From: Escherichia coli
Lineage (GTDB): Bacteria > Pseudomonadota > Gammaproteobacteria > Enterobacterales > Enterobacteriaceae
Strand: one strand, 5' to 3'
Length of the DNA: 64,000 bases
NCBI RefSeq assembly: GCF_965641715.1
Contig: NZ_OZ282453.1
Position 1 is the stretch's first letter; every line of letters starts with the position of its first letter. The notes beneath the pieces are model-generated. The model saw nothing but the letters and a program-made list of their open reading frames with translations, had not been told where the DNA came from and did not search any database. Below are positions 17,240 to 43,394 of this stretch, piece after piece. A program made the position numbers and the translations under genes.

Positions 17240-18364
17240 TCTTCTTCCCCTTAATATAAATGCACCTGCAACCACTCAGCCAAACGCTCAACGTCAAAAC
17301 CCGTAATCCATACTCCCACGCCAAAAACGTCTTCGATAAATATTCATCATATTTTCGAGGCACTTTTCAGAGATGCTCTTGGCAAGACGGGACTCAGGGG
17401 GTAAACCTTCCTGTAGTAAATTGCTTAGCGTCTGCTTAACTTTCCCGAGCGTATTTTTTCAACTACGGCAGCAAATGAGACGGTCTTAAAACCGTGCAGG
17501 ATAGGCCATATCTACAACGTGTTTACTACTTGAGCACACATTGTGATATGGCAGTCACCTTTCCGACAAATGGTGAACCGTCCCTGACGAACAACAACAT
17601 TAACGCATATCTCTTCATCGCCTGATCAAAGTAGCTGCCAACTATTATTCGCCTCAACAATGAGTTTTTTTACTAACGATTTCTACTACCTTCCCAAAGC
17701 GACCACAACAATCAAAAATATTGTTTACACATCAGTCTCATATCACCGGAGTAAGTTGACTATTGATAAACCATTTCAAGATATTAATAGCTGATCATAC
17801 TTCCCCAAAGTGCTTATTTATAGCGAAGGCAAATAGCATAAACTGAAGGGCGAATTGTTAAATCATACCGTGAATGAGCTGAAGAACAAGCATAAAAATT
17901 ATATCATTTACATGACTTATGTGTTTTAGTTAAATGATAAATAGGCAGTATAAAATCCAATTCAACAGCCGAGTTCAAGCGATTAATTTTTTGATGAGCT
18001 TATCAAGCACGAGCAGCGATACCAGCAAATCCACTTGGTTGCTTGAAGAATATGACTCCTTCAACACATAGCAGATTATCTCCGCCGTTGGTAGAGAACC
18101 GTTCACCGTTGTTAGTCAACAGTTATAAATTTATATTAATGATTAGAAGAATCTATCTCGGGGTAGATCATCAACATTACTTATTCTAAACCACGTTACA
18201 CATGATCTCCGGGGCAGCGAAGTCATCAAAAAAGAGTATTATAAAACTCCGCCCTTAAGGAGAAAGGTTTCCTGGCGGTTGTAATGCCGTTGACGATACA
18301 GCGCACAACACGGATATAAACAACCATTTGATTGATTAATATCTGAAGGGCTGTTTATATTTAA

Positions 18365-27164: not shown

Positions 27165-28178
27165 CTATCCAAAAAAATGGTCCCAGGCATTACCAGCCCA
27201 CTCGATAAGTTTGTCTTTCCCCTTACGGGTAAGCTCTTTGACAGGCTTTGGTAACGGAAAAGAATCAATAACGTCGTCGAGTATCCCGGAGATTACGCTG
27301 CCGAAGCCGTTTTTTGCTTCCGTCTTGACCTCTTCGGTTTTGAACTCATCCTTAAACTGCGAAGCCGTGCTACTTTTAGCCCGATCAGGCAAAGCCCGAA
27401 TAATAGTCTCTACCAGACGAAGAATGTTGTAGCCCTCATCGGCGGAGACAGGTGTCACCGGATAGTGCGTAAAACCAAATCGTTCAGTAATGTAGGCTTC
27501 TTTCTTTTCGATGTTGATGCGCTGTGCAGGAGATGGCTGATGCAGATGAGTATCCCACTCGCGGAATGGCTCAATTTTATCAACCTGGTTAAGGACGAAT
27601 AAAACGCGCTCACCCCCACCAGCAGGGAGCAGAACATTGTTGTAGAAATGCTCATCCGCAGAAAAGGCCCGATCGTCTCCTTTTATTACCCACAGGATAA
27701 GATCCAGGGAGGGAAGCAAATTGCGGTATAAATCTTCATACTCCTTATCCCGCCGGGCATTCTCACCGACACCAGGTATATCAATGATCTTTAGCGAATG
27801 TTTGCCGAAGCGTATACGCAATTCCTGAACTTCGCGAGTACATGCCTCAACGTCGCTAACTGCACAAACCTCCCCTTTAAACAGCGCATTACATACGCTG
27901 CTTTTCCCCGCGCCTGTTTTTCCCATGACACCAATCACAGGTTCATAGTCGATGGCTTCACTGATTTTGTTCAACAGCTTTTCCCGCAGTGGCTGAGGGA
28001 AAATATCAAGAATATCCCTGATGTCGGGTATGTGCGGTTTGCTATCACCTTTTTGCTCGTTGCTACCATTACGTTCTGGAAATATATTGCCCCACATTCC
28101 AAAAATCCCGCCTTCCCTTCTGGTGACGCCACTGGCATCAGTAATCATCCGGCCTTCGCCCTTTACCGGGTCATCCAT
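27165..28178 (-). CDS. YfjP/YeeP-family GTPase
   Basis: P-loop GVMGKTGAGKSS and G3-like DIPGVGE. Confidence 0.75.
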   Translation of the reverse strand: MDDPVKGEGRMITDASGVTRREGGIFGMWGNIFPERNGSNEQKGDSKPHIPDIRDILDIFPQPLREKLLNKISEAIDYEPVIGVMGKTGAGKSSVCNALFKGEVCAVSDVEACTREVQELRIRFGKHSLKIIDIPGVGENARRDKEYEDLYRNLLPSLDLILWVIKGDDRAFSADEHFYNNVLLPAGGGERVLFVLNQVDKIEPFREWDTHLHQPSPAQRINIEKKEAYITERFGFTHYPVTPVSADEGYNILRLVETIIRALPDRAKSSTASQFKDEFKTEEVKTEAKNGFGSVISGILDDVIDSFPLPKPVKELTRKGKDKLIEWAGNAWDHFFG

Positions 28179-28217: not shown

Positions 28218-28901
28218 TTACTCTCTGAAGGTCTGAATTACGTCACTTATGAAACGAAAGTGTGGGAGGGCTGAAATGAACTCTTCACTGGCAGTCAGAG
28301 CATCAAGTTCAGGCTTTCTGCGAAAAGAGGTATCCAGAACGGTTACGGCGTTAACGTCTTCCATCCGAAACACCTGTAAATTTCTGGTGCGGGTAGCAAC
28401 AAGAAACCAGTTTTTGGACTGAAATATCAGACGGCGGGGAGCTACTGCTTCGTAGCTTTTACCGTTAACTAATAATGTAACGGCGCGGTAGTCGCGGATA
28501 GCTTCCGCCAGTTCCAGAAAACAGGCGGTTTGTGTAACTGGAGATGGCAGCCCTCCATGCCCTATAAGGCACGGCGAGCTTCCGGAGTTACTGGTAATCA
28601 GTCGAATTAACCTGCGATTCTGAGCCGGAATAATCCCTGAAATCCCGGAATTACGGATAAACGCAAAGGTGTTGGGTGAGTGCTCCCGGCCCGTTCGGCG
28701 GGTAAGTCGATAGCTTCCGCTGGAATGCTCAAGATCCAGATGGATTAGGCGTTGCTGAAAATCCCTCTGTAGGGTGCGTTCTGAGACACCAAATTCATCA
28801 GCTAACGCTTTAAGCTCCAGAGATTCGCCAGCTAGTAAGCGGGTGATAATGACCGATAGCCTGACAGACAGGCGGTCATAATGATCATGCTGTGTTTTCA
28901 T
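28218..28901 (-). CDS. HTH/WYL-domain transcriptional regulator (YfjR-like; from the ATG at 28901, the ORF track starts at 28988)
   Basis: N-terminal HTH LKALADEFGVSERTLQRDFQQ...; C-terminal WYL-like region. Confidence 0.6.
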   Translation of the reverse strand: MKTQHDHYDRLSVRLSVIITRLLAGESLELKALADEFGVSERTLQRDFQQRLIHLDLEHSSGSYRLTRRTGREHSPNTFAFIRNSGISGIIPAQNRRLIRLITSNSGSSPCLIGHGGLPSPVTQTACFLELAEAIRDYRAVTLLVNGKSYEAVAPRRLIFQSKNWFLVATRTRNLQVFRMEDVNAVTVLDTSFRRKPELDALTASEEFISALPHFRFISDVIQTFRE

Positions 28902-29216
28902 GGTGGGGACAGTCCTGTTCTCCCAAAATATCATGGTATTGATACGAGAGATTATGCCGTACAGGTACGACACGTTATGTCGTAGCAAAGGGGAGTGGAT
29001 AGAAAAAATGGCGAAGATGTGAAGAGTTGATTAATTCATTGAAACAAAATGAATTAATAATAATTTTGGGTAAAAGCGACGTCAAAATACGACATAACCT
29101 GTCGTATTTTGTTTTAGCCGGGAAAGGATAACTGCTACTTACTAAAATGATTTAGTGCTGAAAATATTTATAAGCCAATAAATAGACCGGTATTACGGAG
29201 TAACGCCCCGGCTATG

Positions 29217-30194
29217 TTAACGTGCCCGCTGTTTTATCGGCTCAAAAAACATATCCCAGAGATGTTCAGCCATACCCTCGTTAGTGAGCAAGGTATCCCT
29301 TGAGTAGCCAGGGCTGAAGACGCCCATTGATGGGCGAAAACCAAGGTTCTGGCCGTTATTGTCAATGGTTAAGATTTCATTGTAAGCATTGCCAATCACG
29401 CCATCCTGGCTATAACCAATATCGCCCATCCCCATATTTCGCCCGCTATTACGCCAGATTGCACATTGACCTACTTTGCTTCCCCCAATGTAGATCGCAC
29501 AAGTGAAGGCATCTGCGTCACGCTTATTAAAATCGACCTCTAACCCGGCATGGCGTTTTTTGAGTTCAGTCAGCGAGCCTTCAAAATAACGGGCGACATA
29601 TTCAAAACCGTCACGGCAGGCACGATCCTTATCAAGATCGGTAAAACGTTTTGGCAGTGAAAGGTTGCTCGAGCGTGGTGTAAAAACGGTATCCGTCGCC
29701 TGAAGCATTGGATTAGCCGGAGCTGGGGCGTGCACAATCTGTTGCGGCTTTTTCGCTTCCAAATTGGCAATAGCGCGGGAAACGGCATCGACAACCTGAA
29801 CATAGCCTTCATCATGGCTGGCAAATTTATCAATTGGCTTACCGTCAACAGTTGCCGCCAGAATGCGGCCAAACGGTAACATCTTCCACGCGCATTCTCT
29901 TAAGATCACCGGAATGACCACCGCCTCGCCCCGGCTATGTCGCTCCAGAGCGTTGGTCATTTCTACCTGATAGCAATAATCAGAAGCGATAAAATCACTG
30001 CTAATCAGCAACAGGATGATGTCTGCCTGAGAAAAGTAATGATCTATTTGGTTCTCAAACTCTTGTCCTGGAATGATGCGACGATCATGCCATGTCGTGA
30101 TCTTGCCCATGCGTTTCAGGGGGGAAAGATGCTTCTCAAGCTCATTGCGCAGAGCTTCGTCTGCATGAGAATAGGAAAAAACAAGAGAGGTCAT
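29217..30194 (-). CDS. TIR-domain protein with an uncharacterised C-terminal domain (325 aa)
   Basis: N-terminal TIR signature LVFSYSHADEALRNELEKHL...IILLLISSDFIASDYCYQVEMTNALER...VVIPVILREC; divergent from hsdM. Confidence 0.65.
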   Translation of the reverse strand: MTSLVFSYSHADEALRNELEKHLSPLKRMGKITTWHDRRIIPGQEFENQIDHYFSQADIILLLISSDFIASDYCYQVEMTNALERHSRGEAVVIPVILRECAWKMLPFGRILAATVDGKPIDKFASHDEGYVQVVDAVSRAIANLEAKKPQQIVHAPAPANPMLQATDTVFTPRSSNLSLPKRFTDLDKDRACRDGFEYVARYFEGSLTELKKRHAGLEVDFNKRDADAFTCAIYIGGSKVGQCAIWRNSGRNMGMGDIGYSQDGVIGNAYNEILTIDNNGQNLGFRPSMGVFSPGYSRDTLLTNEGMAEHLWDMFFEPIKQRAR

Positions 30195-30409
30195 AGTGCG
30201 TAAGATGCTCCGATAGGGATGTGGAAAATACCGTTATTCTGCGCCGATAAGTGTAAAAGAGTTATCCCCCCTTACCACAAGGTATTGATGCGGAAATCAG
30301 TCCTACATCTTGGTATCGCTCTGACGTCAGGGTATGATCTCTAACAATTTCCCCGATTTTACACAACCTAGACACCAAACCAGGATCAGATGATTTTTTT
30401 GAGGTTTTA

Positions 30410-32116
30410 ATGGACAACGCTGAACAGCAATTTCTGAACGATCTGGATACTAAGTTCTGGAAAGCCGCAGACAAGCTACGCGCCAATATGGACGCAGCCA
30501 ACTACAAGCATGTGGTACTTGGGCTTATCTTTCTGAAGTATGTTTCAGATGCCTTTGACGCACGCCAGAAGGAACTGAAAGGACTGTTTGAAGACAAGTC
30601 CAACCCGGACAACATTTACGCGCTGTCTCGTGACGATTACGACACAGAAGAGGCGTACCAGCAGGCGATCGCAGAAGAGCTGGAAGTTCAGGATTACTAC
30701 ACTGAGAAAAACGTCTTCTGGGTACCCAAACTGGCTCGCTGGGAAACGCTTAAAACCAATGCTGCTCTACCTGTAGGGACGGTTCTGGGGAAAGACGATA
30801 GCGGCAAAGATATCGTCATGACGTCAGTATCGAAGCTGATTGATATCGCTCTGGATACTATCGAAAACAGCAACCCGAAACTGAAAAACATCCTTAACTG
30901 TATCGGACACTATCAGCTTGGTAACGACCTGCTAATTAGCCTGATTAACGTTTTCTCCGATACCAGTTTCAGCGAACCCAAATACAATGGCGTGAAGCTC
31001 AATTTGAAGAGCAAAGATATTCTCGGCCACGTTTACGAATACTTCCTTGGTCAGTTTGCACTGGCGGAAGGCAAACAGGGCGGCCAGTATTACACGCCGA
31101 AAAGCATCGTTACGCTGATTGTTGAAATGCTCCAGCCCTACAATGGCCGCGTGTATGACCCGGCGATGGGATCTGGCGGTTTCTTCGTTTCCAGCGATCG
31201 CTTTATCGAAGCACACGCTGATGAAAAGCATTACAACGCCGCTGAACAAAAACGCAATATCTCCGTTTACGGGCAGGAGTCCAACCCTACCACCTGGCGT
31301 CTGGCTGCGATGAATATGGTGATTCGCGGTATTGATTTTAACTTCGGTAAACAAAACGCCGATACGTTCCTGAACGACCAGCACCCGGATTTACGTGCCG
31401 ATTTTGTTATGGCGAACCCGCCATTCAACATGAAGGAGTGGTGGAACGCCAAGCTGGAAAACGACGTGCGCTGGAAATACGGCACGCCGCCTCAGGGCAA
31501 CGCCAACTTTGCGTGGATGCAGCACATGATCCACCACCTGGCGCCAAAAGGCTCGATGGCGCTGCTGCTGGCGAACGGTTCGATGAGCTCTAACACCAAC
31601 AACGAAGGCGAGATCCGCCGCAACCTGATCGAAGCCGATCTGGTCGAGTGCATGGTCGCGCTGCCAGGTCAGTTGTTTACCAACACCCAAATCCCGGCCT
31701 GTATCTGGTTCCTGACCAAAGACAAATCCGGCGGTAACGGCAAAGCACACCGTAAAGGCGAAGTGTTGTTTATCGACGCGCGTCAGATTGGCTTTATGAA
31801 AGACCGCGTGCTGCGTGATTTTAGCCGTGAAGATATCGCCAGAATTGCTGATATCTTCCACGCCTGGCAGACGGATAAAGGCTATGAAGACGAAGCTGGA
31901 TTCTGTTTCTCCGCAACGCTGGAAGATATCCAGAAAAACGACTTTGTGTTGACCCCTGGGCGCTATGTCGGTGCGGCCGAGCAAGACGAAGACGATGAGC
32001 CTTTTGCCGAGAAGATGGCACGACTGACGGCGCAGCTGAAAGATCAGCTGGAAGAGAGCGCGAAGCTGGAAGCACAGATTAAGGCGAATCTGGGGGGGCT
32101 GGGTTATGAGTTCTAA
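30410..32116 (+). CDS. hsdM: Type I restriction-modification methyltransferase subunit HsdM
   Basis: N6-adenine methyltransferase motifs: DPAMGSGGFF (AdoMet binding) and NPPF (MANPPFNM). Confidence 0.9.
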   Translation: MDNAEQQFLNDLDTKFWKAADKLRANMDAANYKHVVLGLIFLKYVSDAFDARQKELKGLFEDKSNPDNIYALSRDDYDTEEAYQQAIAEELEVQDYYTEKNVFWVPKLARWETLKTNAALPVGTVLGKDDSGKDIVMTSVSKLIDIALDTIENSNPKLKNILNCIGHYQLGNDLLISLINVFSDTSFSEPKYNGVKLNLKSKDILGHVYEYFLGQFALAEGKQGGQYYTPKSIVTLIVEMLQPYNGRVYDPAMGSGGFFVSSDRFIEAHADEKHYNAAEQKRNISVYGQESNPTTWRLAAMNMVIRGIDFNFGKQNADTFLNDQHPDLRADFVMANPPFNMKEWWNAKLENDVRWKYGTPPQGNANFAWMQHMIHHLAPKGSMALLLANGSMSSNTNNEGEIRRNLIEADLVECMVALPGQLFTNTQIPACIWFLTKDKSGGNGKAHRKGEVLFIDARQIGFMKDRVLRDFSREDIARIADIFHAWQTDKGYEDEAGFCFSATLEDIQKNDFVLTPGRYVGAAEQDEDDEPFAEKMARLTAQLKDQLEESAKLEAQIKANLGGLGYEF

Positions 32117-33461
32117 GTTTCGGAAAGTAAAACTATGTGAAATCCTCTCATTTAAGACAGGTAAACTCGACTCGAATGCAGCAGTAGATAATGGTTGTTA
32201 TCCTTTTTTTACTTGCTCGCCAGTTACACTTTCGATTAATACGCATGCTTTTGACACTGAAGCAGTATTATTAGCTGGTAATAACGCAAATGGGGTATTT
32301 TCAGTAAAATACCACAATGGTAAGTTTAATGCTTACCAAAGAACATATGTTATTACTCCTCTGGATAATTCAGCGGTCAATGTGAAATGGCTTTATTTTA
32401 GAATAAAATATGTTACGTCAGAATTACAATCAATGTCAGTTGGCACTGCAACAAAATTCTTAACAAAAAAGATTTTGGATTCATTTGAGATTGAACTGCC
32501 AACTTTTGAAGAGCAAACATATCAAGCTCAGATTTTATGGGCGTTACAGGATAAATTAGCTAATAATGAAGCTATAAACCAAACTCTCGAACAAATGGCG
32601 CAAGCCCTGTTCAAAAGCTGGTTTGTCGATTTTGAACCGGTAAAAGCCAAAATGGCAGCGTTGGAAGCGGGCGGTTCGCAGGAAGACGCGACACGTGCCG
32701 CCATGACGGCAATTTCCGGGAAAGATGCTGATGCGTTGGTGGTTTTTGCGCGTGAACATCCTGAGCAATATGCCGAGTTAAAAGCCACGGCAGAACTGTT
32801 TCCGTCTGCGGTGCAGGAAAGTGAGTTGGGGGCGATTCCTAAAGGATGGGGGGTGGCGTCAATTAGTGAGATGGGGAAGATTACTTGTGGCAAAACTCCG
32901 TCAAAAAAAGAACCAAAGTATTACGGTGGTGATGTTCCATTCATAAAGATACCAGATATGCATGGGCAACTCTTTGTGCTTAAAACTAATGAATATTTAA
33001 GCGAAGTCGGTTCAAAGTCGCAACTAAAAAAACTTGTGCCCGCTAACTCTATCTGTGTTAGTTGTATAGCTACTATTGGTGTTGTTTCTATCACCAATGA
33101 ACCATCTCATACCAATCAGCAAATAAATTCGGTTACACCTTATAAGAGTTCATTACTTTATTATCTTTATTTTTGTATATTGGGATTGAAAGATCATCTT
33201 CACGTTTTAGGTAGCGCAGGTAGTGCAACCTTAAATGTCAATACGTCTACTTTCTCAGGAATTAAAATCGCTCAGCCTGATGCTAAAGTATTGGAGTTAT
33301 TTCATGCCAAATGTACACAATTATTTAATGAGATTAAATCGCTCTGTGTACAAACTGAATCACTTGCACAACTACGAGACACCCTCCTCCCCAAACTCCT
33401 CTCCGGAGAAATTACGTTACCGGATGCCGAGGAAATAGCCAAGGAAGCTGACTATGTTTAA
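32106..33461 (+). CDS. hsdS: Type I restriction-modification specificity subunit HsdS
   Basis: Overlaps the hsdM stop; two AT-rich variable segments alternating with GC-richer conserved segments, as expected for two target-recognition domains. Confidence 0.85.
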   Translation: MSSKFRKVKLCEILSFKTGKLDSNAAVDNGCYPFFTCSPVTLSINTHAFDTEAVLLAGNNANGVFSVKYHNGKFNAYQRTYVITPLDNSAVNVKWLYFRIKYVTSELQSMSVGTATKFLTKKILDSFEIELPTFEEQTYQAQILWALQDKLANNEAINQTLEQMAQALFKSWFVDFEPVKAKMAALEAGGSQEDATRAAMTAISGKDADALVVFAREHPEQYAELKATAELFPSAVQESELGAIPKGWGVASISEMGKITCGKTPSKKEPKYYGGDVPFIKIPDMHGQLFVLKTNEYLSEVGSKSQLKKLVPANSICVSCIATIGVVSITNEPSHTNQQINSVTPYKSSLLYYLYFCILGLKDHLHVLGSAGSATLNVNTSTFSGIKIAQPDAKVLELFHAKCTQLFNEIKSLCVQTESLAQLRDTLLPKLLSGEITLPDAEEIAKEADYV

Positions 33462-34647
33462 AGTCGATCAGCCCAGTAATAGCCTGCAACCGCTTCAGGA
33501 AACCACCTTCACTAACGCGGGTTTCACCGAGCGCTACCACTTACAGGAGTGGCTGGCAAAGCATCCGCAAGCATTGACTCGCAACAGCGATGACGAACTA
33601 CTTATCATCCAGAAAGAGTTTGCCGGGTTTGACGACACCAAAGAGCGGTTAGATCTGCTGGCGATCGACAAAGACGGCAATCTGGTGATCATCGAGAACA
33701 AGCTCGATGATTCCGGGCGTGATGTCGTATGGCAGGCGCTGAAGTACGCGGGCTACTGCGCGAATCTACGCAAAGAACATATTGTTGAGATCTTCCAGCG
33801 TTACCTCGATCAGAACGATCCAGAAGAAACACGCCCAGCCTCTGATGTGCTCGCAGAATTCCTCGAACATGAAAGCCTGGATGAAGTGCAAATTAACCAA
33901 AGCCGTTCCCAGCGTGTGATGATGGTTGCGGCAAATTTCCGCAAGGAAGTTACCAATACTGCGCTCTGGCTGATGCAGTTCAACATCCGTGTCCAATGCT
34001 TTAAGGTCACGCCTTACCGTTATGGAAATGATGTATTCATCGACATCCGCCAGGTTATTCCCACACCGGAAGCCGAATCCTACATGATCGGTATGGCGCA
34101 GAAGGAAGCAGAAGAACAATCAACCAGCGGTGAACTGAAACAGAGCCAACGCCTGCGCAAGGCGTTCTGGACGCAGATGCTGGAGAAATTTCATGCCAGC
34201 GACTGTACGCTGTATAACAACATCAGCCCGTCTATGGATCACTGGTTATGTGCAGGCTCTGGCATAAGTGGTATGCCTTATAGCCTAATATTCAGCAAGA
34301 AGGAAATCCGCGTAGAATTATGGATTTCGCGAGCATCGGCAGACATCAACACCATGGCGTTGAACTGGCTTGAACAACACCGCACATCTGTCGAAGAGGT
34401 ATTCGGCAACCCACTGGAGTGGCTATCGCTACCTGGTAAAAAAGCCTGCCGTATTCAATACCGCCAAAAAATAGATGGCTTCCAGCAGGAAAATTGGCCG
34501 CAAATGATCGACTGGCTGGTGGAACATATGACCCGTTTTGAGAATGCGCTTTCGCCGTATCTGCCACAGCTTAACCAGTTGATCAAGCAGACCTTTAACG
34601 GGCATGATGAAGCTGAAAATACAACAGAAGAAGCCGAACACGTATAA
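33454..34647 (+). CDS. Uncharacterised 397-aa protein inside the RM operon, with a PD-(D/E)xK-like motif
   Basis: Start overlaps the hsdS stop; 16 bp before hsdR; RLDLLAIDKDGNLVIIENKLDD resembles a D...E-x-K nuclease core; no Walker A. Confidence 0.6.
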   Translation: MFKVDQPSNSLQPLQETTFTNAGFTERYHLQEWLAKHPQALTRNSDDELLIIQKEFAGFDDTKERLDLLAIDKDGNLVIIENKLDDSGRDVVWQALKYAGYCANLRKEHIVEIFQRYLDQNDPEETRPASDVLAEFLEHESLDEVQINQSRSQRVMMVAANFRKEVTNTALWLMQFNIRVQCFKVTPYRYGNDVFIDIRQVIPTPEAESYMIGMAQKEAEEQSTSGELKQSQRLRKAFWTQMLEKFHASDCTLYNNISPSMDHWLCAGSGISGMPYSLIFSKKEIRVELWISRASADINTMALNWLEQHRTSVEEVFGNPLEWLSLPGKKACRIQYRQKIDGFQQENWPQMIDWLVEHMTRFENALSPYLPQLNQLIKQTFNGHDEAENTTEEAEHV

Positions 34648-34662
34648 CACAGGACGTTACCG

Positions 34663-37600
34663 ATGCTTACCGAAGACGACTTAGAACAGCTTTGCCAGGG
34701 CTGGTTTGCCGAACAAGGTTGGGAAATCCATCATGGGCCAGATATTGCCCCCGATGGCTGTAACCCGCAACGCGCCAGCTATCATGATGTATTCCTGACG
34801 CCCGTGTTGAACGCCTGCCTGCAAAAAATCAACCCGCACCTGCCCACTGACGTCTTCGAACAGGTCATCTCCCGTATTACTCGCGCTGAAAGCCCGGATC
34901 TGATTGCCAGTAACAAAGCCTTTCATCACTGGTTGCTGGAAGGGGTTCCGGTACAGTACCGTCGCGACGAAGAACTTATCCACGACCACGCCCTGCTGGT
35001 GGATTTTAGCCAGCCGCAAAACAACCGTTTTATGGTGGTCAATCAAATGACTATCAGCGGAACGAAACAGCCTCGCCGCCCGGATATCATCTGCTTTATT
35101 AACGGAATACCACTGGCGGTTGTGGAACTAAAAAGCCCTGTCGATGACAAGGTAGATATCTGGGATGCGTACCACCAGTTACAGACCTATAAAGATGAAA
35201 TACGCGACCTGTTTATCAGCAATGAAGCGTTGATTGTCAGTGATGGTTATCTGGCGCGTGTGGGGTCCCTGACCGCCACGGAAGAACGTTTTATGCCGTG
35301 GAAGACCATCAGCAATGAAAATGACAAGCCGTTGCTGGAATGGCAACTGGAAACTATGGTACGGGGTTTCTTCAACCGGGAATTGCTGCTCGACTATATC
35401 CGCTATTTCGTTCTGTTTGAAAATAACGATGAAAGGCTAATTAAGAAAATAGCTGGTTATCACCAGTTCCACGCGGTGCGTGAGGCCGTGCAGGCGACGA
35501 TCGTTGCTTCGACCGGTAAGCAACTGGTACTGCACAGTAATATTCAGCCAGGCAGTAAGAAAGCAGGCGTGGTCTGGCATACGCAGGGTTCCGGTAAAAG
35601 CATCTCCATGTGTTGCTATGTCGGCAAACTGTTGCAACAGCCGGAGATGGGCAACCCGACGATTGTTGTTGTGACCGATCGTAACGATCTGGACGGCCAG
35701 CTTTATGGTACATTCTGCCAGGCACAGGAGCTGCTCAAGCAAATGCCGGTACAGGCAGATGATCGTGAAACATTGCGTGATCTGCTTGCAACTCGCGATG
35801 CTGGCGGCATTATCTTTACCACCGTGCAGAAATTCTCCCCGGAAGAAGGGGAAAACGCCCATCCGATTCTCAATGGACGCAGCAATATCGTTGTTATTTC
35901 CGATGAAGCGCACCGCAGCCAGTACGGCATGAAAGCCAACCTGGATCGTAAAACCGGCGTCTATAAATACGGTTACGCTAAACATATGCGCGACGCGCTA
36001 CCTAACGCCTCGTTTCTGGGATTTACCGGTACACCGGTTTCGGCAGAGGATCGCGATACTCGCGCTGTATTTGGCGATTACGTCTCAATTTATGATATTC
36101 AGGACGCTGTGGACGATGGCGCAACGGTGCCTATTCACTATGAATCCCGGCTGGCAAAACTCGATCTCAATCATGAAGAGCTGGCGGCGCTGTCCGATCA
36201 GGTTGAAGAACTGATTGAGGACGATGAGCTGGATCAGAGAGAAAAAACCAAAGGTGAATGGAGCCGTCTGGAGAAACTAGTTGGTGCTAAACCACGTCTT
36301 CAGCAGATCGCTGCCGATCTGATTTCTCACTTTGAGAAGCGCAATACCGTAATGGACGGCAAGGCGATGATTGTCGCCATGAGCCGTGAAATCTGCGTCC
36401 ATCTTTACGATGAAATTATTGCGTTGCGTCCGGAGTGGCACGATGACGATCCTGAAAAAGGGCAAATCAAAATCGTGATGACCGGTACAGCATCTGATAA
36501 GGCAATGCTGCAACCGCATATCTACAACAAACGGACTAAAAAACGGCTGGAATCCCGCTTCAAGAATGTGAACGACCCGCTGAAGCTGGTGATAGTGCGT
36601 GATATGTGGCTGACCGGCTTTGATGCCCCATGCTGTCACACTATGTATATCGACAAACCGATGCGCGGCCATAACCTGATGCAGGCTATTGCCCGTGTCA
36701 ACCGGGTATTCAAAGACAAGCCCGGCGGGCTGGTGGTGGATTATATTGGTATCGCCAATGAGCTGAAACTGGCGCTGAAAACTTATACCGATGCAAACGG
36801 TAAAGGTGATGCGACCGTCAACGCTGAAGAAGCACTGGCAATCATGCTGGAAAAGCTGGACATCATCCACGGTATGTTTGCCAAAACGGCAACGTCAGCG
36901 GGTTTTGATTACACCGGCTTTGAAGCTCATGCGCAGAAGTTGCTAGTACCAGTTGCAAACTATGTGCTCGGCCTTGAAGACGGTAAGAAGCGTTTTCTCG
37001 ATAACGTACTGGCAATTACTAAAGCCTGGTCGCTTTGCTGTACGCTGGATGCGGCGCAGCCTTATAAACTAGAGATTGCTTTCTTGTCGGCGGTAAAAGC
37101 TGCTATCAGCAAATTCACCAGTGTGGACAAAAAAATAAGCCAGGCTGAGAAGAACTCCGCGCTGAAACAGATTCTGGATAATGCCGTAATTGCTAACGGC
37201 GTGGATGATATTTTCACGCTGGCTGGTCTGGATAAACCGAATATTGGCTTGCTTTCAGATGAATTCTTGCAGGAAGTCCGCGATATGCCATATCGAAATC
37301 TGGCGGTAGAGCTGCTGGAAAAACTGATTAATGACGGTATCCAGTCCCGTACAAAAAACAATGTAGTGCAGGAGAGGAAATATTCAGAACGTCTTCAGGC
37401 TGTATTGATTAAATACAACAACCGGGCTATTGAGACGGCGCAGGTGATTGAAGAGCTGATCCAGATGGCGAAGGATTTTCAGTCTGCAATGGCGCGTGAT
37501 GATGCGCTTGGCCTGAATCCTGACGAGATCGCTTTCTACGATGCACTGGCAGAAAACGAAAGCGCCGTCCGGGAGTTAGGAGATGAGGTACTTAAGAAAC

Positions 37601-37797
37601 TGGCGATAGAAGTGACGCTGAAGCTGCGCCAATCCACTACCGTTGACTGGCAGGTACGGGAAAGCGTTCGTGCAAGGCTGCGTATCCTGGTTCGCCAGAC
37701 TCTGCGTCGGTATAAGTATCCGCCAGATAAAACGCCGGGTGCGGTGGAGTTAATTTTGAAACAAGCGGAAGTTATTTCGAATCATTGGACGATGTGA
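34663..37797 (+). CDS. hsdR: Type I restriction-modification endonuclease/helicase subunit HsdR
   Basis: 1044 aa; Walker A TQGSGKS, DEAH box [11 protein letters not shown], and further helicase motifs. Confidence 0.9.
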
Positions 37798-37861: not shown

Positions 37862-39604
37862 GTGAGTAAATATAGCGAAATACAACGTCAATTAGATGAA
37901 GTAAGCCCAATACCGAAAGGTATTCCTAAAGTATACCTTTTAGGGGACACTGGAGCAGGAAAGACGACTTTTATTCGAAAAATATTAGGAACTGAAAATA
38001 CCAAATTCCCTACCACCAGACAAAGTAGAACAACCGTTGCACCAACTGAGTATGTAATATGTAAATCATCCAATTATGAATTAACGATTCTGTTAAAATC
38101 TTTTGATGAGATTAATGGATATGTCAGAGAAATTCTAAAAGAAGCATTAGAGAAATCATTGAAAGGTGAAGATGTTAAAAGAAGCTTACGTCAAACAAAT
38201 GATCAGCGGTTTCGTTTATACTATCTTCTTGACGTCAGTGATATTGCAAATTTTGCTGAAGAAGTTATCTCTCTTACACCTCTTCTTTCCGAAAAAATTG
38301 ACGAATTAAAAGAAATTTTTACCGATGATATAACGGATCAAGATGAGTATATTAGTTTTGCTATTGATGAATTAAATGATAAAGTTGAATGTATCCAAAA
38401 TAAGATTATGGACTCCATTCAGAGTAATGTAATGTCCATTTGTAATGGAAGTATGTTAAGTAATGAATCACAGATATTTAAATACATTTCAACCGAAAAA
38501 GAAGACTTTATCAAAAAATGTAAAAAAATATTATCAAGTGATAAAGAGTCTATATCACCTGTTGTCGAGTATGCGAGACTGAGTGGAGAACTCAAATCAG
38601 AATGGGTGAATAGTTGTGCAGAAATAGTTATTATTGATGGTGAAGGTATTGGGCATAATACAAAAGAAACGGCACAACTAGACTCCAGGCATTATGATTT
38701 CTTTTATGATGTTAACTCAATCTTGCTTATCGAAGAGTCAAAAAAACCTTTTATTGCTGGGGGCAAAAATGCATTAAAAAGTATTTTTCAGCGTGGATAT
38801 GGTGATAAATTAAAACTAATCTTCACTAAGCTGGATGAAGTTATACCTTATGATTCAGACGAATCAACAGATGAAGATAGAATTGATTATGTAAAAGATG
38901 GTCTCAATAATGTTCTGGATGCATTAAAAAAAGAAGAGGTGAAGTGTAACATTGATATCGAGGATATTTATTTCATCGGAGATCTTGATAAACCTGAGCA
39001 TAACGCAAGACTTGAATTGGCTTTTAATTCCATATATGAAAACACAGTTTCCATGATAAATAATGATGAGGTTTTCATTGAGCCTAAGTATGACTTTGAG
39101 TTATTGGCCTTGCATATAAATTCTACTTCTAATGATTTTAAAACATACTATAGAAAATTATTAGATAGAGAACATTGGAAAACAATAGAAGCATTTAATC
39201 GACGGATGTATTCAAATATAGATGGGTTTAGGATGTTTATGCCTATTACCGATTTTGAGGAAACTGTGAGTAAATATATTGGTGGTTTTTTGACCTCGCC
39301 AATGGATTGGAAATATGAAGCGGTTGATAACTTGAAGCAAAAAAGTATTAATAAAATCAAGAGGGAATTCAACAAGCTTATTCTTAGCTTTATTCGCAAT
39401 AAGTTAATTATGGAACCATATGAAAAATGGAAAGAATCCTATTTCTTAGCTGGCACTGGTTCAACGATTAGTAGAAAACGTGAGATAACTACTATTTTTA
39501 GTGACACAATTATTGATGCCTCCCAAACTGAACGCTTTAAGGTGTTCAAGGATCAAATTAAAGAGATTGTTGTCAAGTCAATAGAGAACTGTAAGTCAAT
39601 ATAA
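37862..39604 (+). CDS. AT-rich P-loop GTPase-like protein (580 aa, GTG start)
   Basis: G1 GDTGAGKTT, G3-like DGEGIG, G4-like TKLD; much more AT-rich than the flanking hsdR. Confidence 0.6.
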   Translation: MSKYSEIQRQLDEVSPIPKGIPKVYLLGDTGAGKTTFIRKILGTENTKFPTTRQSRTTVAPTEYVICKSSNYELTILLKSFDEINGYVREILKEALEKSLKGEDVKRSLRQTNDQRFRLYYLLDVSDIANFAEEVISLTPLLSEKIDELKEIFTDDITDQDEYISFAIDELNDKVECIQNKIMDSIQSNVMSICNGSMLSNESQIFKYISTEKEDFIKKCKKILSSDKESISPVVEYARLSGELKSEWVNSCAEIVIIDGEGIGHNTKETAQLDSRHYDFFYDVNSILLIEESKKPFIAGGKNALKSIFQRGYGDKLKLIFTKLDEVIPYDSDESTDEDRIDYVKDGLNNVLDALKKEEVKCNIDIEDIYFIGDLDKPEHNARLELAFNSIYENTVSMINNDEVFIEPKYDFELLALHINSTSNDFKTYYRKLLDREHWKTIEAFNRRMYSNIDGFRMFMPITDFEETVSKYIGGFLTSPMDWKYEAVDNLKQKSINKIKREFNKLILSFIRNKLIMEPYEKWKESYFLAGTGSTISRKREITTIFSDTIIDASQTERFKVFKDQIKEIVVKSIENCKSI

Positions 39605-39706
39605 TAAGATAGAACAGTCCCGGATAATATTCGGGACTCATACACTTACAGATGGAGCTATGAATTTAGCAGTAAGAGTATTTGTGATTATTTAAGGAAA
39701 GTAACA

Positions 39707-40672
39707 ATGCCTTTAGATTTAAGTAACACTTTAGTTATTGGCATTAGCGCGACTGCGCTTTTTGACATGAGCGAATCCGACCATATGTTTCGGGAAACCT
39801 TTGCGACTGATCCTGATAGCGCCATTGAAAAATACCGCGCTTATATGCTAGAACACGAAAACCAACCTTTACAGCCCGGAACAGGCTACCCCTTAGTCAA
39901 AGCGTTGCTGGGTCTGAACCAGTACCGTCAACCGGATGATAAATCGCCGTTGGTTGAGGTTGTTGTGATGTCACGTAACAGCCCTGATACAGGTATCCGC
40001 GTTCTCAATACCATTCGCCATGACAAACTCGATATTACACGTTCAGCTTTTACCGCAGGCGAAACCGTTGCCGATTACCTTGATGCCTTTGATGTGGATC
40101 TGTTTTTAACGACCAACGTTGAAGATGCGCAAAAGGTGATTGATTCCCGATTCTGCGCCGCTGCAATCCTGAAAGATCCACCTTCTGACGCATCTGATAT
40201 CCCAGAAGGGCAAGTGCGCATTGCTTTTGATGGCGACGCGGTACTTTTTTCCGATCAAAGCGAACTGGTTTATAAGACCCAAGGAATGGCTGCCTTCCAT
40301 GCTCAGGAAGACGCGCAGCAGGATATCCCTATGGAAGAGGGGCCTTATGCCACTTTGCTAAAAAAAATAGCCAAGCTTCAGGAACGATTGCCGACCCGCG
40401 TTGAGTATTCTCCTGTTCGTATTGCGCTGGTGACAGCCCGAAATAGCCCTTCGGAAATGCGCGTTATTAAAACGCTAAGAAGCTGGGGGGTATATGTCGA
40501 TGAAGCTTTTTTTCTTGGCGGTGTAGAGAAAACAAAAGTTCTGAAGGCGTTTAGGCCACACATTTTCTTTGACGATCAGGATGTGCATTTGATCGCGGCT
40601 GCAAAGGTAGTACCTTCTGGTAAAGTACCTTATGCCAGTAACTCCGAACTTGCAGAACGTGAAGCATCGTGA
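39707..40672 (+). CDS. 5'-nucleotidase-family protein (HAD-like)
   Basis: HAD-type motif IAFDGDAVLFSD and C-terminal FFDDQDVH; family assignment from memory. Confidence 0.5.
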   Translation: MPLDLSNTLVIGISATALFDMSESDHMFRETFATDPDSAIEKYRAYMLEHENQPLQPGTGYPLVKALLGLNQYRQPDDKSPLVEVVVMSRNSPDTGIRVLNTIRHDKLDITRSAFTAGETVADYLDAFDVDLFLTTNVEDAQKVIDSRFCAAAILKDPPSDASDIPEGQVRIAFDGDAVLFSDQSELVYKTQGMAAFHAQEDAQQDIPMEEGPYATLLKKIAKLQERLPTRVEYSPVRIALVTARNSPSEMRVIKTLRSWGVYVDEAFFLGGVEKTKVLKAFRPHIFFDDQDVHLIAAAKVVPSGKVPYASNSELAEREAS

Positions 40673-41840: not shown

Positions 41841-43109
41841 TCACTCGCCATTACCCCGATTGATCTTCGCATAGTCAAACGGCGTAATCGCTCTCTCCCG
41901 ATTGGCATCCAGAAAATCAGCCCACCACTGCAACATCAGCTTGCGCTCATCCAGGTGTTCCGCTTTATGGATATACGCCGCCCTCACCGAGCTGCGTTCC
42001 ATATGGCTCATCTGCCTTTCCACCGCATCCTTCGACCATAACCCTGACTCAATCAATGAGCTACAGGCCATTGTGCGGAAGCCGTGGCCGCAAACTTCAA
42101 CCTTAGTGTCATAACCCATCACCCGTAGCGCACTGTTTACCGTGTTCTCGCTCATGGGCTTACGCGGATCGTGATCGCCAATAAAAATCAGCTCATGTTC
42201 GCCACAGAACTGTTTTATCTGCTTCAGGATCGCCAGCGCCTGCTTTGAAAGCGGCACCAGATGCGGTGTACGCATCTTTGAACCTCGCTGAGAATGTTTC
42301 ACACCGGGAATCGGTTCTCGCTCAGGCGGGATGGTCCACATTGACGTTTCAAAATCGATTTCTGACCAGCGAGCAAAACGTAGCTCACTGGATCGAATAA
42401 AGATAAGCAGAGTGAGTTCTGTCGCCCAGCGGGTTAGCGGCCTGCCTGTATAGCTATCTATTTTCTCAAGTAACTCAGGGATACGCTTTAATTCCAGCGC
42501 CGGGCGATGCTGTCGATTGCCAGAGGCGACTGCTCCAGCCATCTCCTGCGCTGGGTTGTAATCAATCAGCCCACTTTGCACTGCATAACGCATAATGGCC
42601 GTGGTACGCTGTTGGAGACGAGAAGCCACCTCAAGACGTCCAGACAGTTCCACCGCTTTAATGGGTGCCAGTAAGTCACGAGTGCCCAATTCGGCAATAT
42701 TGCGAGAACCAATTGCCGGGAAGATATTGTCCTCCAGGCTCTTTTTTACACGATTAGCATGATCTTCTGACCATTTTTGGTTGGTTACGAGCCACTCTCT
42801 GGCAACCTTCTCGAAAGTAATAATCTCTTTCGCCTGCTCTTCTTTCACAGCACGCTTATGCTCACGAGGATCGATACCAGCAGCTACCAGCTTTCTGGCC
42901 TCTTCCCTTTTCTTCCTGGCATCTGCCAGCGAAACATCCGGGTAAACGCCGAACGCCATCAAATGTTGTTTACCGCCAAAACGGAAACGAAATCGCCAAT
43001 ACTTTGAACCGCCAGGTTTTACAAGTAAGGACATGCCATCGCCGTCAACAAGTGAATACTCTTTCTCCTCAGGTTTCGCAGAGCGAACTTTAGTATCCGT
43101 TAGGGCCAT
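41841..43109 (-). CDS. intB: P4-type tyrosine integrase (from the ATG at 43109; the ORF track starts at 43187)
   Basis: MALTDTKVRSAKPEEKEYSLVDGDG...; C-terminal ...HGFRTMACSSLIESG... catalytic region; about 200 bp from the leuX 3' end. Confidence 0.9.
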   Translation of the reverse strand: MALTDTKVRSAKPEEKEYSLVDGDGMSLLVKPGGSKYWRFRFRFGGKQHLMAFGVYPDVSLADARKKREEARKLVAAGIDPREHKRAVKEEQAKEIITFEKVAREWLVTNQKWSEDHANRVKKSLEDNIFPAIGSRNIAELGTRDLLAPIKAVELSGRLEVASRLQQRTTAIMRYAVQSGLIDYNPAQEMAGAVASGNRQHRPALELKRIPELLEKIDSYTGRPLTRWATELTLLIFIRSSELRFARWSEIDFETSMWTIPPEREPIPGVKHSQRGSKMRTPHLVPLSKQALAILKQIKQFCGEHELIFIGDHDPRKPMSENTVNSALRVMGYDTKVEVCGHGFRTMACSSLIESGLWSKDAVERQMSHMERSSVRAAYIHKAEHLDERKLMLQWWADFLDANRERAITPFDYAKINRGNGE

Positions 43110-43270
43110 AATGGTCTTCCTTCCATTGGTATCTCGTGAGTATACAAGCAATATCGAATCGGCAAATATACTCATTAGTATACTCACAAGCCTGTTGATG
43201 TGGGTTGGTTCAGGTTGACTTCAGTTGAGGAGAAAAGCTGGAAAAGCCTTGCGTGGCGCGGATTTCAGGC

Positions 43271-43309: not shown

Positions 43310-43394
43310 TGGTGCCGAAGGCCGGACTCGAACCGGCACGTATTTCTACGGTTGATTTTGAATCAACTGCGTCTACCGATTTCGCCACTTCGGC
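43310..43394 (-). tRNA. leuX: tRNA-Leu (leuX), intact with CCA end
   Basis: Reverse complement GCCGAAGTGGCGAAATCGGTAGACGCAGTTGATTCAAAATCAACCGTAGAAATACGTGCCGGTTCGAGTCCGGCCTTCGGCACCA; 85 nt. Confidence 0.95.

What the first reader, a model, noticed from the sequence alone, without database searches (positions are those of the whole stretch)
29217..30194. Stand-alone TIR-domain protein divergent from the type I RM operon
Seen in sequence: the N-terminal 130 residues carry a TIR-like signature (VFSYSHAD..., IILLLISSDFIASDYCYQVEM, VVIPVILREC) followed by about 190 residues of unknown function. Established knowledge: bacterial TIR proteins act in Thoeris, CBASS and related defences as NAD-consuming or signal-generating enzymes. 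Here no ThsA-like (SIR2 or SLOG) partner is adjacent; the neighbours are a WYL regulator on one side and hsdM, divergently transcribed, on the other. Inference: either a single-gene TIR effector or a ThsB-like sensor whose partner lies elsewhere.
Basis: partly seen in the sequence, partly recalled or inferred. Interest (0 to 1): 0.65.

Follow-up and report, generated by a model that had tools for sequence, protein, structure and literature searches.

The report
Solo SDIC1A-type TIR anti-phage gene
The gene is real and encodes a TIR-domain protein, but it belongs to an already tested anti-phage family (SDIC1A of Serratia); here it lacks its usual small partner and sits beside a type I restriction system in an E. 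coli defence island.

Summary
The 325-aa ORF at 29217-30194 (-) is exactly as described. It has an N-terminal TIR domain (Pfam TIR_2 E=4e-13; fold matches to MAL, AbTir, SPARTA and Cat1) with a conserved candidate catalytic Glu (E78). A disordered linker follows, then a 150-aa C-terminal domain (newer Pfam PF27176 'Y4lF').

No ThsA is present in the window or in 79 species-level homologous loci. The WYL neighbour is island backbone, not a partner.

The family is not new. Cloning primers for SDIC1A and SDIC1B (Cummins et al., bioRxiv 2024; cited as Cell Rep 2024) match, with zero mismatches, the gene starts of a 64%-identical allele and its small downstream gene. In that study SDIC1A alone gave abortive-infection-type defence in E. 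coli. It needed both domains, self-interacted and depolarised cells, and the NAD+ loss was not significant. SDIC1B only reduced its toxicity. The window copy lacks SDIC1B.

New here:
- It is also fused to CHAT proteases and a Pycsar-type TIR.
- It evolves faster than the TIR domain.
- Three unrelated small partner families exist.
- The gene is often next to or inside R-M operons.

Verdict: a new member of a known kind, of modest interest.

The parts
29217..30194 (-). Complete gene for the 325-aa TIR-Y4lF protein, an SDIC1A homolog (stop codon 29217-29219)
   Evidence: ORF. Full-length match to PADLOC PDLC00420 'ThsB1|ThsB' at E=3e-157. 64% identical to the L023/L014 allele whose gene ends match the SDIC1A primers.
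29751..30194 (-). TIR domain, residues 1-148
   Evidence: Pfam TIR_2 at residues 6-114, E=3.9e-13. Secondary structure of the model. Foldseek hits to solved TIR domains.
29961..29963 (-). GAA codon of E78, the candidate catalytic glutamate in the motif SSDFIASDYCYQVEM
   Evidence: Sequence read. E78 is conserved in >=90% of 51 diverse family members. Its role is inferred from its position in the canonical TIR motif (own knowledge) and was not tested.
29679..29750 (-). Variable, disordered linker, residues 149-172
   Evidence: pLDDT of 47-62 in this stretch. Lowest conservation in the family, 0.26.
29220..29678 (-). C-terminal Y4lF domain (PF27176), residues 173-325. It opens with the near-invariant PRSSNL motif and has a frataxin-like alpha-beta6-alpha fold.
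30195..30409 (.). 215-bp divergent spacer between the TIR gene and hsdM; presumed to hold the promoters of both
   Evidence: Coordinates and sequence. One weak plus-strand promoter-like match lies at 30310-30338. No promoter was demonstrated.
30410..37797 (+). Context only: type I R-M operon hsdM (30410-32116), hsdS (32106-33461), DUF4268/PDC-S11 (33454-34647), hsdR (34663-37797). It is a recurrent neighbour; a functional link is not shown.
   Evidence: ORFs. PDC-S11 E=1e-177. RefSeq annotation of the relative. Type I R-M lies within 10 kb in 17/79 loci and directly adjacent in 9/79.
28218..28901 (-). Context only: WYL-domain regulator, part of the CP4-like island backbone together with the GTPase at 27165-28178. 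It is not a partner of the TIR gene.
   Evidence: PADLOC WYL hit. WYL homologs occur in only 2 of the other 78 loci, 6-7 genes away and next to the GTPase.

Best explanation
The gene encodes a self-contained abortive-infection protein of the SDIC1A family.

Shown here: it has a TIR domain with the conserved active-site-type glutamate (E78), a flexible linker, and a fast-evolving C-terminal Y4lF domain with a frataxin-like fold. Elsewhere that same C-terminal domain is fused to other cell-killing domains (CHAT protease, Pycsar-type TIR). The gene sits in the leuX/lptG defence island among other defence modules and has no obligate partner gene.

Shown by others for a homolog 64% identical to the window protein: the protein alone reduces phage output at the cost of infected cells, needs both domains, self-associates, is toxic when overproduced, and depolarises the membrane. 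A small downstream protein (SDIC1B) binds it and reduces that toxicity.

Inferred: the Y4lF domain is the sensing or regulatory module. It holds the protein inactive until a phage cue appears. It then lets the TIR domains assemble into oligomers whose composite active sites cleave NAD+, and loss of membrane potential and growth arrest follow. In the window copy SDIC1B is absent, so control must be intrinsic or come from low native expression.
For: - Family membership: the SDIC1A and SDIC1B primers from Table S29 match with zero mismatches at the start codons of the TIR-Y4lF gene and its small downstream gene in L014 and L023. The window protein is 64% identical to that allele.
- Experimental properties of SDIC1A.
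- TIR domain. E78 conservation.
- Portability of the C-terminal domain: 688 representatives at 50% identity, always C-terminal. N-terminal partners are TIR_2, CHAT and CAP12-PCTIR_TIR. A 1176-aa CHAT protein also appears in AFDB.
- The C-terminal domain evolves faster than the TIR domain: 38% against 49% mean pairwise identity, and lower in 97% of 1176 pairs.
- No conserved partner.
- Defence-island setting: neighbours include PD-T7-5, RmrT, PDC-S39, PglX, HsdS, PDC-S25 and Dsr1. The window has leuX, an integrase, lptG and lptF.
- Precedent for a single-protein TIR NADase activated by a phage protein: SpbK.
Against: - The NADase step is not established. Whole-cell NAD+ in SDIC1A-expressing cells fell, but not significantly, and the authors favour depolarisation as the primary effect.
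- No trigger is known.
- The tested allele shares only 63% identity with the window protein in the C-terminal domain, so specificity, toxicity and even activity of the window copy are extrapolated.
- About 400 E. coli genomes retain only a 3' stump of the gene, so the gene is often lost.
- The sensor role of the Y4lF domain rests on modularity and evolutionary rate, not on any binding data.
Confidence: 0.6

Rival explanations
1. The TIR domain is mainly an oligomerisation scaffold, and the protein kills by directly disturbing the membrane or another target through its C-terminal domain. NAD+ loss is secondary or absent.
For: The SDIC1 authors saw consistent depolarisation but no significant NAD+ drop, and both domains were required. 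The closest solved TIR fold is the adaptor MAL/TIRAP, which signals by assembly.
Against: - E78 and the surrounding motif are conserved in >=90% of a very diverse family. That is hard to explain for a pure scaffold.
- The protein has no predicted membrane segment; the model is a soluble alpha/beta protein.
- The same C-terminal domain is fused to enzymes (CHAT, PCTIR) in place of the TIR. This suggests the N-terminal part is the effector.
- NAD+ was measured at steady state in whole cells, not during infection.
Confidence: 0.22
2. It is a back-up 'guard' of restriction-modification. It is kept silent by an intact R-M complex, or senses phage anti-restriction proteins, and fires when restriction is disabled, as PrrC does with EcoprrI.
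For: - Type I R-M genes are within 10 kb in 17/79 loci and directly adjacent in 9. This includes 10 of 11 Enterobacterales loci, with at least three different hsd gene orders.
- The gene is co-directional and nearly abutting or overlapping inside hsd operons in L039, L040 and L064.
- Type III-like Mod and type IIG/PglX methylase genes lie directly upstream in L031, L067 and L025.
- The host used for the SDIC1 tests, MG1655, carries its own type I system (own knowledge), so those tests do not exclude a dependence on R-M.
Against: - 62 of 79 loci have no type I R-M within 10 kb, and only 7 of 68 loci outside Enterobacterales do.
- The adjacent R-M families differ, which fits hotspot sharing better than a specific protein-protein partnership.
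- Other neighbours are unrelated defence modules.
- No baseline for other defence genes was computed here.
Confidence: 0.1
3. It is a Thoeris-type ThsB that makes a nucleotide signal for an effector encoded elsewhere in the genome.
For: There is a full-length match to a PADLOC model named ThsB. TIR proteins of Thoeris produce signals.
Against: - No ThsA model hit in the window.
- No SIR2-type ThsA in 79 loci.
- The Pfam ThsB_TIR family is not matched; TIR_2 is.
- SDIC1A alone works in a heterologous host and is itself toxic.
Confidence: 0.05
4. It is a virulence-type TIR protein (like TcpC or BtpA) that interferes with host Toll-like receptor signalling, not a phage defence gene.
For: The closest solved fold is MAL/TIRAP. 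E. coli is known to carry TIR virulence factors (own knowledge).
Against: - The family is spread through free-living soil, water and marine bacteria of many phyla.
- It lies among defence genes.
- It has no secretion signal or linked secretion system.
- A homolog protects against phages.
Confidence: 0.03

Closest known systems
SDIC1 (SDIC1A + SDIC1B) of Serratia marcescens, LptG-YjiA island (Cummins, Garrett, Blower, Mariano; bioRxiv 10.1101/2024.01.28.577318; cited as Cell Rep 2024;43:115055)
   Same: - Same protein family and architecture: about 323 aa, N-terminal TIR and a C-terminal domain of then-unknown fold.
- Same chromosomal hotspot next to lptG.
- 64% identity to the allele that matches the SDIC1 primers.
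   Different: - The window copy has no SDIC1B gene or remnant.
- Its C-terminal domain is only 63% identical.
- It is divergently paired with a type I R-M operon and followed by a WYL gene.
Thoeris ThsB
   Same: It is a TIR-domain protein, and a PADLOC model labelled ThsB covers it end to end.
   Different: - No ThsA partner anywhere nearby, in this locus or in 79 others.
- It has an extra C-terminal domain.
- The homolog acts alone and is itself toxic.
SpbK of ICEBs1 (Bacillus subtilis)
   Same: It is a single protein with a TIR domain plus a second domain, carried on a mobile element and giving abortive infection. In SpbK the non-TIR part binds a phage protein, which switches on NADase.
   Different: - Domain order is reversed (TIR is C-terminal in SpbK).
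- No detectable sequence relationship outside the TIR domain.
- NADase activity and the trigger are demonstrated for SpbK and not for this family.
PrrC anticodon nuclease embedded in the EcoprrI type I R-M locus (own knowledge)
   Same: It is a suicide-type effector gene physically nested in or beside type I hsd operons in several lineages.
   Different: - A different enzyme.
- The link to R-M is facultative here (17/79 loci).
- No evidence of a physical or regulatory tie to the R-M enzyme.
Frataxin / CyaY / Nqo15 fold
   Different: - 8-14% identity.
- No Pfam or PDB sequence match.
- No reason to expect iron or Fe-S chemistry.
- The resemblance is one of fold only.

Membership tests
SDIC1 (Serratia defence island candidate 1) | SDIC1A-type protein: about 323 aa, N-terminal TIR plus the specific C-terminal domain | tested here: met
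   The SDIC1A primers match L014 and L023 exactly. The window protein aligns end to end with that allele at 64% identity, E=4e-163.
SDIC1 (Serratia defence island candidate 1) | SDIC1B gene immediately downstream | tested here: not met
   tblastn with three SDIC1B-like proteins finds hits in L006-9, L014, L018, L019 and L021-23, but none in the window. The 315-bp stretch after the stop codon has no ORF.
SDIC1 (Serratia defence island candidate 1) | Location in the variable island next to lptG | tested here: met
   lptG at 51400-52485 and lptF at 52482-53582 score above the NCBIfam cut-offs. leuX tRNA is at 43310-43394 and an integrase at 41841-43187.
SDIC1 (Serratia defence island candidate 1) | Protection against phages by population-level (abortive) immunity | not testable with these tools
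   Reported only for the Serratia allele.
Thoeris | TIR-domain ThsB component | tested here: met
   PADLOC PDLC00420 'ThsB1|ThsB' at E=3e-157. However, Pfam ThsB_TIR PF08937 is not matched.
Thoeris | Adjacent ThsA effector (SIR2-SLOG or Macro-TM) | tested here: not met
   No ThsA hit among the window ORFs. In 79 loci the only SIR2 proteins are PDC-S25 and Dsr1. Macro-type ThsA was not searched with a dedicated seed, but no neighbour family exceeds 22% of loci.
Thoeris | Production of a cADPR-isomer or His-ADPR signal | not testable with these tools
   Requires metabolite analysis.
Enzymatic TIR NADases | TIR fold | tested here: met
Enzymatic TIR NADases | Conserved catalytic glutamate after the beta-C strand | tested here: met
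   E78 is conserved in >=90% of 51 sequences. It aligns with the corresponding Glu of Cat1 in the phmmer alignment.
Enzymatic TIR NADases | NAD+ cleavage activity | not testable with these tools
   The only published measurement on a homolog was not significant.
Frataxin/CyaY | Sequence-level homology to frataxin | tested here: not met
   No Pfam hit and no PDB profile hit. There is fold similarity only.
R-M-embedded guard effectors (PrrC-like) | Gene consistently nested in an R-M operon | tested here: inconclusive
   Adjacent in 9/79 loci and within 10 kb in 17/79. In the window the arrangement is divergent, not nested.

The most novel reading that the evidence does not exclude
The Y4lF domain is a portable, frataxin-fold infection sensor. 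Bacteria have plugged it into at least three different suicide effectors (TIR, CHAT protease, Pycsar-type TIR). In part of the family, including this E. coli locus, it is wired to restriction-modification as a second line that fires when restriction is evaded or inhibited. Three unrelated small partner proteins (SDIC1B, 'family 2', 'family 24') would be independently acquired brakes, and solo copies like this one would be self-restrained.
Probability: 0.15. Interest if true: 0.65.

Novelty: new member of a known kind. Interest (0 to 1): 0.33.

Why it matters
The locus itself is an ordinary member of a defence family that has already been cloned and shown to work, so it does not open a new category. 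Its value lies in what it adds to a family whose mechanism is still open.
- **Solo copies:** a natural copy without SDIC1B shows that the brake protein is not universal.
- **A fold for the C-terminal domain:** the domain now has a fold assignment, and there is evidence that it is an exchangeable module attached to different killing domains.
- **Breadth and partners:** the family extends well beyond enterobacteria and has other small partner proteins.
- **Link to R-M:** the repeated placement next to or inside R-M operons gives a concrete, testable idea about what triggers it.
- **Annotation:** defence-annotation pipelines will label this gene 'ThsB' without a system, which is misleading.

Tried and rejected
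- **ThsA in the window:** PADLOC scans of 19 ORFs found none.
- **The SIR2 gene near the E. coli L012 allele as a hidden ThsA:** it is PDC-S25. The two SIR2 proteins in the 79 loci are PDC-S25 and Dsr1.
- **WYL as regulator or partner of the TIR gene:** rejected. WYL recurs in only 2 other loci, far from the TIR gene and next to the CP4-type GTPase. The palindromes lie in front of the WYL gene, not the TIR gene.
- **Sequence identification of the C-terminal domain:** the Pfam release available to me gave nothing. PHROGs gave nothing. NCBIfam gave only a sub-threshold ThcB4 hit in the TIR part. A PDB profile search gave nothing. A literature search for 'Y4lF' returned 0 papers.
- **Common origin of the three small partner families:** hhalign probabilities were <=1.1%.
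- **Short 'stand-alone Y4lF' proteins:** on reading, most are N-terminally truncated TIR-Y4lF fragments, so they are not evidence for a free-standing domain.
- **Published Cell Reports version:** not held, so I relied on the preprint.
- **Neighbourhood ORF calling:** it was a simple longest-ORF procedure, so small gaps and overlaps are approximate.

Full report
**Observation.** The ORF at 29217-30194 on the minus strand exists as described: 325 aa, ATG start, with all three quoted motifs in its translation. Pfam places TIR_2 at residues 6-114 (E=3.9e-13) and finds nothing in the C-terminal ~200 residues. A 51-sequence alignment gave a confident AlphaFold model (mean pLDDT 89.5). It shows a TIR domain at 1-148, a disordered linker at about 150-182, and a compact C-terminal domain. 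Foldseek against the PDB returns TIR domains only: MAL/TIRAP, AbTir, SPARTA TIR-APAZ, Cat1, plant TIRs and SARM1. hsdM begins 215 bp away on the other strand, and a WYL-domain gene follows downstream.

**Setting.** The window is E. coli. Part of it is 99.9% identical to strain A30. The TIR region is 96.5% identical to strain SCU-115, which has the same gene order. The gene lies in an island of about 35 kb, bounded on one side by tRNA-Leu(CAA) at 43310-43394 with a tyrosine integrase beside it. lptG, lptF and pepA lie beyond that boundary, and nanM lies on the other side. The island also holds:
- a CP4-like backbone (GTPase, DUF932, RadC, YeeU/CbtA);
- a type I R-M operon with an inserted DUF4268/PDC-S11 gene;
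- a PDC-S08 gene and an HNH/phosphorothioate-type endonuclease.

About 117 of 5426 complete E. coli genomes carry at least 80% of the gene.

**No Thoeris partner.** A PADLOC model named ThsB covers the protein from end to end (E=3e-157). This means the model was built from this family; it does not mean the locus is Thoeris. No ThsA model matches any ORF scanned in the window.

I collected 80 loci, one genome per species, from Proteobacteria, Cyanobacteria, Verrucomicrobia, Planctomycetes, Acidobacteria, Chloroflexi, Bacteroidota and Saccharibacteria, and clustered all neighbouring ORFs. No neighbour family is present in more than 22% of loci. In 33 of 79 loci no same-strand gene lies within 100 bp on either side. 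The only SIR2-like proteins in these loci are PDC-S25 and Dsr1, and the SIR2 gene near one E. coli allele is also PDC-S25. WYL homologs recur in two loci only, six to seven genes away and next to the CP4-type GTPase, so WYL belongs to the island backbone.

**Identity of the family.** A full-text search led to the study of Serratia defence islands by Cummins, Garrett, Blower and Mariano. It describes SDIC1 from the LptG-YjiA island as follows:
- SDIC1A is 323 aa, with an N-terminal TIR and a C-terminal domain for which Foldseek found no match.
- SDIC1B is a small downstream protein.
- SDIC1A alone was necessary and sufficient for protection in E. coli MG1655, with an abortive-infection type of phenotype.
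- SDIC1A was toxic without SDIC1B, needed both of its domains, interacted with itself and with SDIC1B, and depolarised the membrane.
- Whole-cell NAD+ fell, but not significantly.

I could not fetch the Serratia record, so I used the primers in the paper's Table S29. The SDIC1A forward primer matches, with zero mismatches, the start of the TIR-Y4lF gene in an E. coli allele (L014) and a Pantoea allele (L023). The SDIC1B forward primer matches the start of the small gene just downstream, also with zero mismatches. The internal and reverse primers translate to family peptides (ILRNCA, EAIVIPV, IKQRMT*). The window protein is 64% identical to that allele over its full length: 72% in the TIR domain and 63% in the C-terminal domain. 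So the gene is an SDIC1A homolog. The work is cited as Cell Rep 2024;43:115055; I could not read that version.

**How this copy differs.** SDIC1B-like genes are found downstream in Enterobacter ludwigii, Rouxiella, Hafnia, Serratia quinivorans, Erwinia endophytica, Pantoea and one E. coli allele. They are absent from the window, from its close relatives in E. coli, Citrobacter, Enterobacter asburiae and Cedecea, and from Serratia proteamaculans and Moellerella. The window copy is therefore a natural solo version. SDIC1B was dispensable for defence, so this is compatible with function. It does raise the question of how toxicity is restrained.

**What the analysis adds about the family.**
1. *The C-terminal domain is a defined module.* It is PF27176 'Y4lF', seen in the precomputed Pfam of homologs. 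It has 688 representatives at 50% identity and is always at the C-terminus. Most carriers are TIR-Y4lF proteins. It is also fused to CHAT proteases and to a CAP12/Pycsar-type TIR domain with DUF2513. All of these N-terminal domains are effector domains of defence systems.
3. *It evolves faster than the TIR domain.* Mean pairwise identity is 38% against 49%, and it is lower in 97% of pairs. The most variable stretch is residues ~250-300. A PRSSNL motif at the entry to the domain and E78 in the TIR domain are nearly invariant.
4. *There are three small partner families.* Besides SDIC1B (5 loci), two other small gene families sit tightly next to the gene. 'Family 2' (about 160 aa) is downstream in 18 loci of alpha-, beta- and gammaproteobacteria, and 'family 24' (about 100 aa) is in 4 loci. 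They are unrelated to each other and to SDIC1B (hhalign probability <=1.1%) and have no PADLOC match. Together they cover 27 of 79 loci.
5. *R-M is the commonest neighbour.* Type I genes are within 10 kb in 17/79 loci and directly adjacent in 9. That is 10 of 11 Enterobacterales loci but only 7 of 68 others. In E. coli alone, diverged alleles face three different hsd layouts: M-S-DUF4268-R, R-M-S and M-M-S-R. In L039, L040 and L064 the gene is co-directional within the hsd operon. In L031, L067 and L025 it follows type III-like or type IIG/PglX methylase genes.

**Mechanism.** The best-supported account is a self-contained abortive-infection protein. The modularity and faster evolution of the Y4lF domain point to it as the sensing or regulatory part, and to the N-terminal domain as the effector. 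The conserved glutamate and the reported self-association fit the usual way enzymatic TIR domains work, by assembly into oligomers with composite NAD+-cleaving sites. SpbK is a precedent for a single TIR protein switched on by a phage protein. The NADase step is an inference. The only measurement on a homolog was not significant, and the authors lean towards depolarisation as the primary effect. I keep that as the main rival.

The R-M guard idea is attractive because of the repeated adjacency, and because MG1655, the test host, has its own type I system (own knowledge). But most loci have no R-M nearby, and the adjacent R-M families differ, which fits shared hotspots just as well. A Thoeris-like remote partner and a virulence role are both unlikely.

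**Verdict.** The gene is a new member of a known, experimentally tested kind, notable mainly as a solo, R-M-adjacent variant. Interest is modest. The open questions are the trigger, the chemistry, and the meaning of the R-M linkage.

Noticed in passing
window 10302-17275 (-): A two-gene operon encodes proteins of 1581 aa (12530-17275) and 743 aa (10302-12533), with a 4-nt overlap. Neither has a PADLOC, NCBIfam or Pfam match. The operon is conserved in 142 of 5426 E. coli genomes, where both genes are annotated 'hypothetical protein'. It lies in the same defence island.
   Followed up: partly
E. coli genomes, e.g. L095 7001-7128 (strain 746): About 400 complete E. coli genomes keep only the last ~128-142 nt of the TIR-Y4lF gene, unannotated. 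In strain 746 this stump lies ~120 bp from an hsdR-like helicase-hsdM-hsdS operon. This records deletion of the gene in widespread lineages.
   Followed up: partly
window 33454-34647 (+): A DUF4268 / PDC-S11 gene (E=1e-177) is inserted between hsdS and hsdR of the type I operon. The same insertion is seen in Enterobacter and other loci.
   Followed up: no
window 37862-40672 (+): Just after hsdR there is a low-GC (32%) 580-aa P-loop protein with only weak mad3/mad8 hits, followed by a PDC-S08 (5'-nucleotidase-like) gene at E=5e-134. This may be another candidate defence pair.
   Followed up: no
window 29087-29107 and 28966-28984: Two palindromes of the form ACGACA-N-TGTCGT lie upstream of and at the start of the WYL gene. 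The first abuts a good promoter-like site at 29085-29057. They are probably WYL autoregulatory operators. No such site lies upstream of the TIR gene.
   Followed up: no
L037-L088 (e.g. L055 10971-11462; L038 10983-11453): 'Family 2' is a ~160-aa protein encoded immediately downstream of TIR-Y4lF (gaps of -43 to +12 nt) in 18 loci of alpha-, beta- and gammaproteobacteria. It has no PADLOC match and is unrelated to SDIC1B. It is probably an alternative brake or partner.
   Followed up: partly
proteins P0154, P0204 (CHAT-Y4lF), P0237 (DUF2513 + CAP12/Pycsar TIR + Y4lF): The Y4lF domain is fused to effector domains other than the canonical TIR. AFDB also has a 1176-aa CHAT protein with this domain. 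Their loci were not examined.
   Followed up: partly
L012 16512-18101 and L063 14449-15813: A PDC-S25 SIR2-family gene lies within a few genes of TIR-Y4lF in two unrelated genomes, E. coli and Novosphingobium. With only two cases, this may be coincidence within defence islands.
   Followed up: no
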